From Acutalibacteraceae bacterium (GTDB lineage Bacteria > Bacillota > Clostridia > Oscillospirales > Acutalibacteraceae), in the NCBI GenBank assembly GCA_045636705.1, contig JAZTYA010000033.1, forward strand, positions 677 to 64,676: 64,000 nt of DNA, given 5' to 3'. Each line of letters starts with the position of its first letter. The first letter of the stretch is position 1. A model generated the notes under the pieces. That model saw only the letters and a list, made by a program, of their open reading frames with translations. It ran no database searches and had not been told where the DNA came from. Shown in pieces: positions 33,949 to 35,187 of the stretch. The translations under genes were made by a program, and so were the position numbers.

Positions 33949-34521
33949 GTGTTTAATAAAACAAAAATAAAATGTTCAGTAATTGCCTTTGTTGCGATTG
34001 TAATTACATTTTTATCTCAAGGCACATTGGCTTACTATTCTACAATAGGCAAGACTACCAACGTTGTGACCTCCGGTAATATTCAGTTTATTATTCACGA
34101 AACAACCGACCAAGGAAAAGAATTTCCAAAAGAGGGAGTTTATATCGTTCCGGGTGATATTGTTTCAAAAAAGGTTAGTATTGAGAGTGACTGTGAGCAC
34201 CCGTTCTACCTTCGTGTTAAAATGGTTTATGGTGTAAACTCAGAGGAACTTTCGGCTGAAGATTGCTTTAAGCTTAACATTAACGAGGAATATTGGGAAC
34301 TGCATGACGGCTGGTATTACTACAAAGGTATCGTAGAACCCAATGACACTACTCCGGATGTATTTTCCCACGTTGAAATGGTTGGTGCCAATATTGATAA
34401 CAGTTATATAGGTAAAACCTTGAGTTTAACCGTCAAAGCACAGGCTGTTCAAAGTGAAAACAACCCCTTAACCGACGGCAATACCTATACCGCACTCGGT
34501 TGGCCCTCGGAGGATAGTTAA
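33949..34521 (+). CDS. SipW-class secreted protein, short TasA/camelysin-like subunit (subunit 5)
   Basis: GTG at 33949, 7 nt after AAAGGAGG. Signal IAFVAIVITFLSQGTLA/YYSTIGK. VPGDIVSKKVSIESDCEHPFYLRVKM, and C-terminal VKAQAVQSEN. Confidence 0.7.
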   Translation: MFNKTKIKCSVIAFVAIVITFLSQGTLAYYSTIGKTTNVVTSGNIQFIIHETTDQGKEFPKEGVYIVPGDIVSKKVSIESDCEHPFYLRVKMVYGVNSEELSAEDCFKLNINEEYWELHDGWYYYKGIVEPNDTTPDVFSHVEMVGANIDNSYIGKTLSLTVKAQAVQSENNPLTDGNTYTALGWPSEDS

Positions 34522-35187
34522 ATGAAGAAGATTATAGTTCTCTTGTTTACATTATTACTCTTCTTTGCTAATACAATAACGAGTTTTGCGGCAGAGGGAA
34601 AGGTAACCTATACCGGAAATGCAGGCAAATTTGTCTTTAAACCCGGTAGTGATTACTCATTAACCGACCTGTTTTCCAATTTTAAGGACGTTATGCCCGG
34701 TGACACCCTAACACAACAAATCACCGTTAAAAATAAGGCGGATAATAAGGTTAAGGTTAAAATTTATATGCGTTCTCTGGGTGCACACTTGGATTCGGTT
34801 GACTTCTTGTCTAAACTAGGACTCAAGGTGCAAAAGAGTGAAAAAAACGAAATGGCATATATGTTCGATGCCGCAGCCGACGAAACCGCAGGACTTACCG
34901 ATTGGGTATGCCTTGGCACACTCTATTCGGGCGGCAAGGTTAATTTAGATGTAATTTTAGAGGTTCCCGTAGAACTCGATAATATGTTTCAAAGTAAAAT
35001 CGGCTATCTCGATTGGGAATTTATGATAGAAGAGTTTCCCGTAGAACCCGATGACCCAAAACTACCGCAGACAGGTGACAATGCAAAAAAAGAAGTTTGG
35101 ATTGCTCTGATGGTCTGCTCATTATGTATAATGTTTATTCTTTTGATATGGCGTAAAAAGGATAAGGAAGATAAAGAACACGCCTAA
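34522..35187 (+). CDS. LPXTG cell-wall-anchored protein with a TasA-like PGD/beta-sandwich motif
   Basis: Sec-type signal (TSFA/AEG), MPGDTLTQQITVKNKADNKVKVKIYMR, then LPQTGDN plus a TM plus RKKDKEDKEHA. Its ATG directly follows the stop of subunit 5. Confidence 0.8.
   Translation: MKKIIVLLFTLLLFFANTITSFAAEGKVTYTGNAGKFVFKPGSDYSLTDLFSNFKDVMPGDTLTQQITVKNKADNKVKVKIYMRSLGAHLDSVDFLSKLGLKVQKSEKNEMAYMFDAAADETAGLTDWVCLGTLYSGGKVNLDVILEVPVELDNMFQSKIGYLDWEFMIEEFPVEPDDPKLPQTGDNAKKEVWIALMVCSLCIMFILLIWRKKDKEDKEHA

What the first reader, a model, noticed from the sequence alone, without database searches (positions are those of the whole stretch)
33949..35187. Short TasA-like subunit translationally abutted to an LPXTG protein carrying the same PGD beta-sandwich motif, with no sortase in the window
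The stop of subunit 5 (34519-34521) is immediately followed by the ATG of the LPXTG protein (34522). The LPXTG protein uses an ordinary Sec signal (TSFA/AEG) rather than the SipW-class one. It still carries the class-II subunit motif: MPGDTLTQQITVKNKADNKVKVKIYMR, compared with VPGDIVSKKVSIESDCEHPFYLRVKM in subunit 5 and APGDELDKNPTVVNTGEYDQYVRVTV in subunit 2. It ends in LPQTGDN, a TM helix and RKKDKEDKEHA. Inference: it could be an acceptor-only basal subunit. It would have a groove but no SipW-generated donor strand, and would be covalently fixed to peptidoglycan by a housekeeping sortase encoded elsewhere. That would explain how a TasA-type fibre stays cell-associated without TapA.
Basis: partly seen in the sequence, partly recalled or inferred. 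Interest (0 to 1): 0.6.

Follow-up and report, generated by a model that had tools for sequence, protein, structure and literature searches.

The report
Wall-anchored end subunit of TasA-like fibre
This gene encodes a small relative of the Bacillus biofilm-fibre protein TasA that has a shortened linking arm and a cell-wall sorting signal, so it most likely ends a secreted protein fibre and ties it to the wall of an uncultured gut Clostridia bacterium, an arrangement already proposed in recent preprints but never tested.

Summary
Subunit 5 (33949-34521) ends in TAA and the next base starts a 221-aa protein. That protein has a signal peptide, a beta-sandwich body, LPQTGD, a TM helix and a basic tail. 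It is a true remote homologue of the locus's TasA/BsaA-type subunits (profile-profile 96% to the subunit-2 family, 85% to the subunit-5 family), not a Cna-B/Ig protein.

It belongs to a large family with no Pfam/NCBIfam model: 1354 clusters, about 5% of sampled Clostridia genomes. The order subunit 5 -> anchor -> subunit 6 -> subunit 7 held wherever the locus had room (about 70 of 80 species loci). A subunit-5/2-class gene also sits directly upstream in five distant lineages.

Its N-terminal arm has 7 residues before the TG turn, against 13 in subunit 5 and TasA. So about half of the donor strand is missing.

The genome has one class B sortase elsewhere. That sortase is near-universal in relatives. 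Some relatives carry a sortase inside the operon.

Best reading (about 0.55): a strand-accepting, chain-terminating base subunit fixed to peptidoglycan. Which protein donates the strand is not shown; a read-through subunit 5-anchor AlphaFold model gave no docking. Two preprints and earlier scan notes already propose this kind of anchor, so this is a new member of a known but untested kind.

The parts
33949..34521 (+). Subunit 5: 190-aa BsaA-family, SipW-processed fibre subunit. Predicted cleavage is GTLA|YYS. Its 13-residue arm is YYSTIGKTTNVVT. It carries a candidate N38/E51/K74 isopeptide triad.
   Evidence: TIGR04090 E 3.4e-8. hhalign to the subunit-2 family gives 99.4%. AF2 core pLDDT is about 90, and mature residues 1-15 are disordered. 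N38, E51 and K74 are invariant in 67-70 of 70 homologues.
34509..34514 (+). GGAGGA ribosome-binding site of the anchor gene, inside the last codons of subunit 5 and 7 nt before the ATG.
   Evidence: Read directly from the sequence.
34522..34590 (+). Signal peptide of the anchor protein (residues 1-23, cleavage SFA|AEG). It is not of the SipW-cognate type.
   Evidence: No TIGR04088 match in this protein or in 60 family members. A23 is 88% conserved.
34591..34617 (+). Short N-terminal arm AEGKVTYTG (residues 24-32). It corresponds to the C-terminal half of the subunit 5 / TasA donor arm. V28 and Y30 are highly conserved.
   Evidence: hhalign aligns GKVTYTGN with TNVVTSGN of subunit 5. V28 is 0.91 and Y30 is 0.95 conserved in 128 representatives. 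pLDDT is below 50-60 in both models.
34618..35046 (+). TasA/BsaA-like beta-sandwich body (residues 33-175). It includes TDLFxNFKxVMPGD, FLSxL and the last strand LDWEFMIEE.
   Evidence: AF2 with 60-row alignment: core pLDDT 80-89 and seven strands. hhalign 96% and 85%. Foldseek hits TasA 5of2 and 7ueg with probability 0.99-1.0 but weak E and TM-scores.
35062..35187 (+). Sorting signal: LPQTG (residues 181-185, 35062-35076), D186, TM helix 192-210, basic tail RKKDKEDKEHA, then the stop codon.
   Evidence: NF053819 E 1.8e-7 and TIGR01167 15.8 bits against a cut-off of 15.9. T184, G185 and D186 are 0.88-0.91 conserved. 86 of 150 representatives fit a strict xPxTG + TM + basic-tail pattern.
35214..35867 (+). 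Subunit 6: 217-aa small TasA-like subunit of the same class as the N-domains of subunits 1, 3 and 4. It is always immediately downstream of the anchor gene.
   Evidence: hhalign 99.5-99.7% to the N-domains of subunits 1, 3 and 4. Downstream in 68 of 71 loci with room.
35906..36565 (+). Subunit 7: 219 aa. Only its signal and arm region is homologous to the other subunits; the body is not detectably TasA-like. It is a candidate donor-only cap.
   Evidence: hhalign 88-95% to subunits 1, 3 and 4 over about 55 columns only. Present in 67 of 71 loci.
28558..29217 (+). SipW-type signal peptidase 2.
   Evidence: TIGR02228 E 5.6e-29, above the cut-off.
25446..26174 (+). SipW-type signal peptidase 1 (a paralogue), just after a TetR-like gene at 24850-25440.
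   Evidence: TIGR02228 hit at G000:C33:26155-26631, E 2.9e-19. ORF.
29301..29993 (+). Subunit 2: 230-aa class II TasA-like subunit. It is the closest paralogue family of the anchor.
   Evidence: TIGR04088 E 1.1e-5. hhalign A1 against the subunit-2 family gives 96%. N37, E58 and K100 are invariant.
26904..28589 (+). Subunit 1: 561 aa, a TasA-like N-domain plus a beta-helix-like payload.
   Evidence: PF12389 E 6e-7 and TIGR04088 E 4.9e-7.
30088..32262 (+). Subunit 3: 724 aa, a TasA-like N-domain plus a payload.
   Evidence: TIGR04088 E 4.4e-6. Weak Beta_helix and GLUG matches.
32355..33833 (+). Subunit 4: 492 aa, a TasA-like N-domain plus a payload.
   Evidence: PF12389 E 7e-9, above the gathering score.

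Best explanation
The 221-aa LPQTG protein is the cell-wall-anchored terminal subunit of a SipW-dependent, TasA/BsaA-type donor-strand fibre.

Proposed mechanism:
1. It is exported with its own signal peptide and held in the membrane by its C-terminal sorting signal.
2. Its TasA-like beta-sandwich takes up the free N-terminal strand of the last SipW-processed subunit. Subunit 5, the gene it is translationally coupled to, is the likely donor.
3. Its own arm lacks about six N-terminal residues of a full donor strand, so it cannot recruit a further subunit and it ends the chain.
4. The genome's single class B sortase, encoded on another contig, then cleaves P-x-T-G|D and links the fibre to peptidoglycan.

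Shown here: homology to the fibre subunits, the short arm, the conserved sorting signal, the conserved gene order, and the presence of the sortase.

Inferred: the direction of strand donation, the identity of the partner, and processing by sortase.
For: Homology with the fibre subunits over the whole sandwich: hhalign 96% and 85%. TasA 5of2 and the archaeal bundling pilin 7ueg are among the longest Foldseek alignments.

Short arm:
- It has 7 residues before the TG turn, against 13 in subunit 5 and TasA. The missing part corresponds to the half of the TasA donor strand 28-38 that carries F29 and I32 (PMC9674648).
- Only 2-5 residues separate the cleavage site from the first conserved hydrophobic residue across 150 representatives and five distant loci.
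- No SipW-type signal.

Conserved context:
- The order subunit 5 -> anchor -> subunit 6 -> subunit 7 held wherever there was room in 80 species loci and in 8 relatives.
- Minimal distant loci are SipW + 1-2 subunit-5-like genes + anchor, with or without a sortase.

Sorting signal and sortase:
- T184, G185 and D186 are about 0.9 conserved.
- The class B sortase is single-copy in 25 of 26 good relatives.
- A class B sortase sits in the operon of a 512-aa family member. In that member three Cna_B repeats (as read in the translation) lie between the TasA-like domain and PPATGD.

Literature: the base-growth model for BsaA and the LPXTG-BsaB anchor proposal are in PMC11580942. An AF3-predicted donor-strand complex of an LPXTG anchor with a fibril subunit is in bioRxiv 10.64898/2026.01.04.697558.
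Against: - No structural evidence for strand uptake. The read-through single-chain subunit 5-anchor AF2 model had pTM 0.46 and left both arms disordered.
- The residual arm (V28, Y30) is among the most conserved positions. It aligns with the NVVT part of the subunit 5 arm, so it may still act as a strand.
- Asn is the most common residue (37%) at the position matching the subunit 5 arm Asn. The position matching the subunit 5 groove Lys is never Lys (0 of 128). A donor role would fit this pattern at least as well.
- Fold matches to TasA are weak (E about 1e-2, TM 0.35-0.44).
- Sortase cleavage is not demonstrated, and the window protein's TIGR01167 score is just under the cut-off.
Confidence: 0.55

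Rival explanations
1. Donor-type anchor or nucleator, like TapA or ElrB. The wall-anchored protein inserts its short conserved N-terminal strand (xVTYxG) into the groove of the first subunit, subunit 5. The fibre then grows away from the cell.
For: - V28 and Y30 are 91-95% conserved, lie 4-5 residues from the mature N-terminus, and are not packed in the monomer model.
- The arm aligns with the subunit 5 arm.
- Asn is the plurality residue at the arm position matching N38, while subunit 5 keeps an invariant groove K74/E51.
- TapA and the LPxTG protein ElrB are strand donors at the cell-proximal end (PMC9674648; bioRxiv 10.64898/2026.10.17.759780).
Against: - The arm lacks the six N-terminal residues that carry the main hydrophobic contacts in TasA (PMC9674648).
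- TapA and ElrB lack the acceptor fold, whereas this protein keeps a complete sandwich.
- The window protein and most of its close relatives (56 of the 70 sequences kept from the 80-locus set) have Lys, not Asn, at that arm position.
- The pseudo-dimer model did not dock this arm either.
Confidence: 0.2
2. An ordinary mid-fibre subunit that happens to be wall-anchored, both donating and accepting. On this reading fibres are tethered at several points or lie along the wall rather than being capped.
For: It has a complete sandwich plus a residual conserved arm. It is homologous to subunits 2 and 5.
Against: - The arm is consistently about 6 residues shorter than those of polymerising subunits, in all lineages examined.
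- It has no SipW-type signal.
- There is one copy per locus, at a fixed position in the gene order.
Confidence: 0.1
3. It is not a fibre component. On this reading it is an independent wall- or membrane-anchored TasA-fold surface protein, for example a docking site or adhesin. The C-terminal signal might act only as a membrane anchor.
For: No direct evidence of interaction with any subunit. The sorting-signal HMM scores are below the curated cut-offs for the window protein.
Against: - It sits strictly within the subunit 5 / 6 / 7 module in 80 loci, and next to subunit-5-like genes in distant lineages.
- The TGD motif is about 90% conserved.
- Sortase genes lie inside some related operons.
Confidence: 0.08

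Closest known systems
Clostridium perfringens bsa locus (srtB next to sipW-bsaA-bsaB-bsaC; in ATCC 13124 and most strains one bsaB-like gene carries LPXTG). Sources: PMC7395162, PMC11580942.
   Same: - A SipW-dependent BsaA/TasA-type fibre subunit gene is followed by a TasA-like paralogue with an LPXTG signal.
- That paralogue lacks the N-E-K isopeptide triad.
- A class B sortase is involved.
- The authors speculate that it anchors the oligomers to peptidoglycan.
   Different: - Here the sortase is on another contig.
- The locus has two SipW genes, seven SipW-type subunits including three with large payload domains, and no VWA protein (BsaC).
- I did not test direct orthology of this family to the LPXTG-BsaB. 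The role is untested in both systems.
Bacillus subtilis tapA-sipW-tasA (TasA fibre structure, PMC9674648).
   Same: A dedicated SipW peptidase. A beta-sandwich subunit polymerised by an N-terminal donor strand. An accessory protein that ties the fibre to the cell.
   Different: - TapA is a strand donor without the TasA sandwich and has no sorting signal.
- The protein here keeps the sandwich, has a truncated arm and carries a sortase signal.
- It would sit at the opposite fibre end from TapA.
LPXTG and SLH anchors in bacterial AbpX loci, for example Clostridium amylolyticum A0A1M6GRE1 (bioRxiv 10.64898/2026.01.04.697558).
   Same: A TasA-superfamily fibril locus with an LPXTG-motif anchor protein. 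AF3 predicts that this anchor forms donor-strand complexes with the fibril subunit.
   Different: It belongs to a different subfamily (AbpX) and uses a different signal peptidase type. I did not test the relationship to this family, and the paper gives only predictions.
Enterococcus faecalis Elr (WxL) pilus base subunit ElrB (bioRxiv 10.64898/2026.10.17.759780).
   Same: A donor-strand fibre of a Gram-positive bacterium is terminated by an LPxTG protein and retained on the wall by a housekeeping sortase.
   Different: - The subunit fold is unrelated (WxL) and assembly is chaperone-guided (ElrE).
- ElrB is donor-only with no acceptor domain.
- It uses sortase A, not a class B sortase.
Basal pilins of sortase-assembled pili (for example EbpB, named in bioRxiv 10.64898/2026.10.17.759780) and chaperone-usher end subunits (FimH, acceptor-only tip; PapH, terminator). 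The chaperone-usher examples are from my own knowledge.
   Same: A dedicated end subunit stops polymerisation and/or fixes the fibre to the envelope.
   Different: There is no pilin motif and no class C sortase, and subunits are not joined by sortase. There is no chaperone or usher.

Membership tests
TasA/BsaA/camelysin superfamily (PF12389, TIGR04090) | Homology of the beta-sandwich body to family members | tested here: met
   hhalign of A1 against the subunit-2 family gives 96%, E 4.5e-9, 167 columns. Against subunit 5 it gives 85%, and against the subunit 4 N-domain 79%. Subunit 4 passes the PF12389 gathering score. Subunit 5 hits TIGR04090 at E 3.4e-8.
TasA/BsaA/camelysin superfamily (PF12389, TIGR04090) | Match to the curated family models above their cut-offs | tested here: not met
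   The window protein has no Pfam hit. TIGR04090 scores 12.8 bits against a cut-off of 60. Only 4 of 60 family members give weak PF12389 or TIGR04090 matches.
TasA/BsaA/camelysin superfamily (PF12389, TIGR04090) | Fold similarity to solved TasA | tested here: inconclusive
   Foldseek: 5of2 at E 7.7e-3, probability 1.0, TM 0.35-0.39. 7ueg at E 4.2e-3, TM 0.37-0.44. Generic jelly-roll and CUB hits score about the same.
SipW-dependent fibre subunit (TIGR04088 cognate signal) | SipW-type signal peptide ending in A-[WFY]-[FY]-x-D | tested here: not met
   No TIGR04088 match for the window protein or for any of 60 family members. The cleavage context is SFA|AEG.
Polymerising TasA-type subunit | Full-length N-terminal donor strand (about 11 residues plus linker before the SG turn) | tested here: not met
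   It has 7 residues before TG, against 13 in subunit 5 and in TasA (PMC9674648). The arm is short in all representatives and in distant loci.
BsaA-type 'exchange and lock' subunit | N-E-K triad for an intermolecular isopeptide bond | tested here: not met
   The position matching the subunit 5 groove Lys (K74) is Q 70%, E 14%, D 12.5% and K 0 of 128. Equivalence to BsaA numbering is inferred from motif positions, not from an alignment with BsaA.
Sortase substrate (LPXTG-type sorting signal) | Tripartite C-terminus: motif, hydrophobic helix, basic tail | tested here: met
   LPQTGDN, TM 192-210 and RKKDKEDKEHA. NF053819 E 1.8e-7; TIGR01167 15.8 bits against a cut-off of 15.9. T, G and D are 0.88-0.91 conserved.
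Sortase substrate (LPXTG-type sorting signal) | A sortase encoded in the genome | tested here: met
   A class B sortase (TIGR03064, 169 bits, above the cut-off) lies on C34, and a class D-like sortase on C30. The class B sortase is present in 25 of 26 good relatives.
Sortase substrate (LPXTG-type sorting signal) | Cleavage and linkage to peptidoglycan | not testable with these tools
   This needs cell-wall fractionation and MS.
TapA-like nucleator | TasA-like donor strand on a protein that lacks the TasA sandwich | tested here: not met
   The protein has the sandwich and a truncated arm.
Sortase-pilus basal pilin (Cna-B/Ig) | Cna-B/Ig pilin domains and a class C sortase | tested here: not met
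   The window protein has no Cna_B or pilin hit. The genome has no class C sortase. Some longer family members add Cna_B repeats only as a stalk.

The most novel reading that the evidence does not exclude
The locus builds a SipW-gated, tip-first, base-growing heteropolymeric pilus in gut Oscillospirales.
- Payload-bearing subunits (1, 3, 4) are displayed on a shaft of subunit 2 / subunit 5-type proteins.
- The joints of that shaft are locked by spontaneous Asn-Lys isopeptide bonds, using the invariant N-E-K triads.
- Subunit 7 is a donor-only cap at the distal end.
- The short-armed LPQTG protein is an acceptor-only terminator that the housekeeping class B sortase fixes to the wall.

This would be a third route of Gram-positive pilus assembly, besides sortase polymerisation and the WxL chaperone pathway.
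Probability: 0.3. Interest if true: 0.7.

Novelty: new member of a known kind. Interest (0 to 1): 0.4.

Why it matters
TasA-type fibres are a major class of Gram-positive and archaeal surface and biofilm polymers, yet outside Bacillus (TapA) it is unknown how they stay on the cell.

This gene belongs to a large protein family with no Pfam or NCBIfam model. It comprises 1354 clusters at 50% identity, 428 loci in species-representative genomes, and about 5% of sampled Clostridia. It is the obvious candidate for a covalent anchor and chain terminator.

If confirmed, it would give a defined end subunit for structural work. It would also provide a marker for annotating such loci in gut Clostridia, and a direct test of fibre polarity, that is, growth at the base or at the tip.

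The idea itself has already been raised in two preprints and in many earlier notes of this scan. The value here is the family-level evidence: the conserved short arm, the fixed gene order, and the link to a class B sortase.

Tried and rejected
- Profile search of A1 against PDB sequences found nothing relevant.
- Pfam and NCBIfam scans of all 60 family members gave only anchor-signal hits and a few weak TasA/BsaA matches.
- Foldseek of the full-length model was weak.
- The search for related loci with the broad alignment A1 failed for lack of a conserved stretch. The narrower A2 worked.
- Read-through pseudo-dimer test. The subunit 5 stop and the anchor ATG are in the same frame, so I translated 34033-35076 with TAA=G as one chain: mature subunit 5 + G + anchor residues 1-185.
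  - A first alignment put the anchor family onto the subunit 5 half. I fixed this by adding 10 natural in-frame read-through pairs from related loci.
  - The AF2 model had pTM 0.46 and both arms below pLDDT 50. That is no docking in either direction, so the test is inconclusive.
  - Foldseek of that model was uninformative.
- Isopeptide lock at the anchor junction: rejected for this clade. The arm position is Lys and the groove position is Gln.
- Cna-B/Ig basal-pilin reading: rejected.
- Dedicated sortase within the locus: found in only 1 of 88 related loci.
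Full report
**What is in the sequence**

All genes from 24850 to 36565 lie on the + strand. In order they are:
- a TetR-like gene;
- SipW paralogue 1 (25446-26174);
- subunit 1 (561 aa);
- SipW paralogue 2 (28558-29217; TIGR02228 E 5.6e-29);
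- subunit 2 (230 aa), subunit 3 (724 aa) and subunit 4 (492 aa);
- subunit 5 (33949-34521, 190 aa);
- the LPQTG protein (34522-35187, 221 aa);
- subunit 6 (217 aa) and subunit 7 (219 aa).

Next come a consensus promoter at 36646 and an ORF that looks like ribosomal protein L21 (rplU).

The subunit 5 stop codon TAA (34519-34521) is followed directly by ATG 34522, in the same frame. A GGAGGA sits 7 nt upstream of that ATG. The LPQTG protein has a signal peptide (…TSFA|AEG), the MPGDTLTQQITVKN block, LPQTGDN, a hydrophobic helix and RKKDKEDKEHA.

**Is it related to the fibre subunits?**

By single-sequence HMM search, barely. There is no Pfam hit, and TIGR04090 (BsaA family) scores only E 0.07.

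The family is large. A search of 50%-identity cluster representatives found 1354 clusters at E<=1e-3. Most members are 200-260 aa and end in xPxTGD + TM + basic tail.

A 60-sequence alignment (A1) gives the consensus VTYxGxAxxFIFxPGS..TDLFxNFKxVMPGDxLTQxIxVKN…FLSQLxLxV…NEFQxxxGxxxWEFxVEE.

Profile-profile comparison with families I built from 80 related loci gave these results:
- 96% probability (E 4.5e-9, 167 columns) to the subunit-2 family;
- 85% (E 6e-6) to the subunit-5 family;
- 79% to the N-domain of subunit 4.

The subunits are also linked to each other. Subunit 5 to subunit 2 gives 99.4%. Subunit 6 to the N-domains of subunits 1, 3 and 4 gives 99.5-99.7%. Subunit 4 passes the Pfam Peptidase_M73 (camelysin/TasA) threshold.

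The AlphaFold2 model has mean pLDDT 79. Its seven-strand sandwich core has pLDDT 80-89. Foldseek against the PDB gave only weak hits. TasA (5of2, 5of1) and the archaeal bundling pilin 7ueg are among the longest alignments, and no Cna-B or pilin Ig domain appears. A sequence-profile search of the PDB found nothing relevant.

Conclusion: the protein is a remote member of the TasA/BsaA superfamily.

**Is it a fixed part of the system?**

Yes.
- Among 40 relatives, the protein occurs in 8 of 25 genomes of the genus and in a few other families.
- In all eight same-genus genomes that have it, and in one from another family, a subunit 5 homologue ends just upstream. One further carrier (G031) gave no subunit 5 match at E<=1e-5. 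A SipW gene lies on the same contig a few kb upstream in six of them.
- A scan of species-representative genomes found 428 loci. The 80 best come from gut and rumen MAGs labelled Acutalibacteraceae, Faecousia, Oscillospiraceae or Eubacteriales.
- In all of these, the order subunit 5 -> anchor -> subunit 6 -> subunit 7 holds wherever the contig leaves room. Subunit 6 is downstream in 68 of 71 loci and subunit 7 in 67 of 71. Subunit 5 is listed directly upstream in every locus with room. The number and type of payload-bearing subunits upstream vary.
- The subunit 5-anchor spacer is 13 nt (26 loci), 12 nt (12 loci), a 4-nt overlap (11 loci) or 0 nt (2 loci). The exact abutment here is one form of a conserved tight junction.
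- In an even sample of 400 Clostridia genomes the family is present in 21, spread over 15 of 217 genera.
- Five distant loci show SipW, then 1-2 subunit 5/2-class genes, then the anchor. Two of them have a sortase gene immediately downstream.
- A 512-aa family member has the same N-terminal domain, then Cna_B (Pfam PF05738; I count three repeats in its translation), then PPATGD. Its locus has a subunit-5-like gene upstream and a class B sortase two genes downstream.

**The arm**

TasA polymerises through residues 28-38, the first 11 residues of the mature protein. F29, I32 and F39 make the hydrophobic contacts, and residues 39-47 (FASGTLDLS) lead on (PMC9674648).

| Protein | Residues before the SG/TG turn | Sequence |
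|---|---|---|
| Subunit 5 | 13 | YYSTIGKTTNVVT\|SGNIQFII |
| TasA (letters recalled from memory, not retrieved here; donor residues 28-38 per PMC9674648) | 13 | AFNDIKSKDATFA\|SGTLDL |
| Anchor | 7 | AEGKVTY\|TGNAGKFVF |

hhalign pairs GKVTYTGN of the anchor with TNVVTSGN of subunit 5. About six N-terminal residues of a full donor strand are therefore missing. This holds family-wide: only 2-5 residues lie between the signal cleavage site and the first conserved hydrophobic residue.

The SipW-cognate signal model TIGR04088, which includes the start of the donor strand, matches none of 60 members.

Against a simple 'no strand' reading:
- V28 (0.91) and Y30 (0.95) are as conserved as core residues in 128 diverse representatives.
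- AlphaFold leaves residues 20-50 at pLDDT 49-60.

**Direct test of pairing**

The two genes are in the same frame. I therefore translated 34033-35076 with TAA read as Gly, giving mature subunit 5 + G + anchor residues 1-185 as one chain. I folded it with a 97-row alignment that includes ten natural in-frame read-through pairs from related loci.

The result was mean pLDDT 77 and pTM 0.46. Subunit 5 mature residues 1-15 and anchor residues 21-35 were both below pLDDT 50. No docking appeared in either direction, so the test is inconclusive. It used an artificial hydrophobic linker and few paired rows.

**Isopeptide residues**

BsaA of C. perfringens locks its donor-strand joints through N35-K74, catalysed by E56 (PMC11580942).
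- Subunit 5 has invariant N38, E51 and K74 (67-70 of 70 homologues).
- Subunit 2 has invariant N37, E58 and K100.
- In the anchor family, the position matching the groove Lys is Q 70%, E 14% or D 12.5%, and never K (0 of 128).
- The position matching the arm Asn is N 37%, S 26% or T 16%. It is K in the window protein.

The anchor cannot be locked as an acceptor. In about a third of the family it could in principle be locked as a donor. This keeps the donor-type rival alive. Equivalence to BsaA residue numbers is inferred from motif position only.

**Sortase**

The genome is 1.475 Mb, 95.8% complete, and has two sortases, neither in the window.
- One is a 224-aa class D-like enzyme. It lies next to a small protein ending in IIKTTGAG + TM + basic tail.
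- The other is a class B sortase (TIGR03064, 169 bits, above the cut-off) fused to a CinA/PncC domain.

The anchor is the only canonical LPXTG protein I found. Five large proteins end in PPYSGD, PPYAGD, GPYAGD or VDTGD + TM + basic tail. The family motif is P-x-T-G-D. From my own knowledge, this resembles the (S/P)PxTG class handled by clostridial class B sortases.

The class B sortase is single-copy in 25 of 26 good-quality relatives, with or without the anchor gene. Only 1 of 88 related loci has a sortase within the flanks. 'A housekeeping sortase encoded elsewhere' is therefore supported, but it is class B, not class A.

**Mechanism and rivals**

The most coherent reading combines these facts with the base-growth model proposed for BsaA (PMC11580942).
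1. Subunits are held at the membrane by their uncleaved SipW-type signals.
2. Each receives the free arm of the previous subunit.
3. SipW cleavage then releases its own arm for the next subunit.
4. The short-armed, C-terminally tethered protein takes the last arm, cannot extend the chain, and is moved to peptidoglycan by sortase.

I put this at about 0.55. A TapA- or ElrB-like donor role gets about 0.2, a mid-fibre anchored subunit about 0.1, and no role in the fibre about 0.08.

**Comparison with what is known**

- PMC11580942 notes an LPXTG-bearing bsaB-like gene next to srtB in most C. perfringens strains and speculates that it anchors the oligomers. It also lists LPxTG and sortase genes among BsaA/TasA gene neighbours.
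- bioRxiv 10.64898/2026.01.04.697558 shows LPXTG and SLH anchors in bacterial AbpX loci, with AF3-predicted donor-strand complexes.
- bioRxiv 10.64898/2026.10.17.759780 shows an analogous LPxTG terminator, which is donor-only, in the unrelated WxL pilus.
- Earlier notes of this scan reached the same reading for homologues in other genomes. I treat those as leads, not evidence. I re-tested the 'lost strand' claim here and found the strand truncated rather than absent.

**Verdict**

The feature is real and well conserved. It is a new member of a kind that has been predicted but not tested experimentally. Interest is moderate.

Noticed in passing
33949-34521 and 29301-29993: Subunits 5 and 2 carry invariant Asn (arm), Glu (end of first strand) and Lys (4 residues after PGD): N38/E51/K74 and N37/E58/K100. 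This mirrors the BsaA N35/E56/K74 isopeptide triad, so these subunits may be covalently locked in the fibre.
   Followed up: partly
35906-36565: Subunit 7 shares only its signal and arm region with the other subunits. Its roughly 130-aa body is not detectably TasA-like, and 24 cytoplasmic residues precede its TM segment. It is a candidate donor-only (TapA-like) cap, or a membrane-retained piece.
   Followed up: partly
G000:C34:26759-27493 (locus L002 1183-3174, minus strand): The genome's class B sortase is fused to an N-terminal CinA/PncC (nicotinamide-nucleotide amidohydrolase) domain in a 663-aa ORF. Relatives have class B sortase ORFs of 560-990 aa, so the long fusion form seems conserved.
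   Followed up: no
G000:C30 (locus L001 635-1875): A class D-like sortase (224 aa) lies directly after a 186-aa secreted protein ending in IIKTTGAG + hydrophobic helix + KKGLFVK. This may be a dedicated sortase-substrate pair with a non-canonical motif.
   Followed up: no
genome contigs C8, C10, C25, C27: Large proteins (799-1213 aa) end in PPYSGD, PPYAGD, GPYAGD or VVDTGD followed by a TM helix and a basic tail. They are likely further class B sortase substrates with P-x-[TSA]-G-D motifs.
   Followed up: no
33884-33908: A 10-bp GC-containing hairpin (GGCATAAG…CTTATGCC) with a short T-run lies between subunit 4 and subunit 5. It could lower transcription into the subunit 5 / anchor / 6 / 7 module.
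   Followed up: no
locus L103 7416-12881: A 512-aa member of the anchor family inserts Cna_B repeats (three as I read its translation) as a stalk between the TasA-like domain and PPATGD. Its operon also encodes a LysM-like 559-aa protein and a class B sortase.
   Followed up: partly
25446-26174 and 28558-29217: Two SipW-family peptidases lie in one locus, and the pair is conserved in many related loci (the SipW1 … SipW2 order). Why two are needed is unknown.
   Followed up: no
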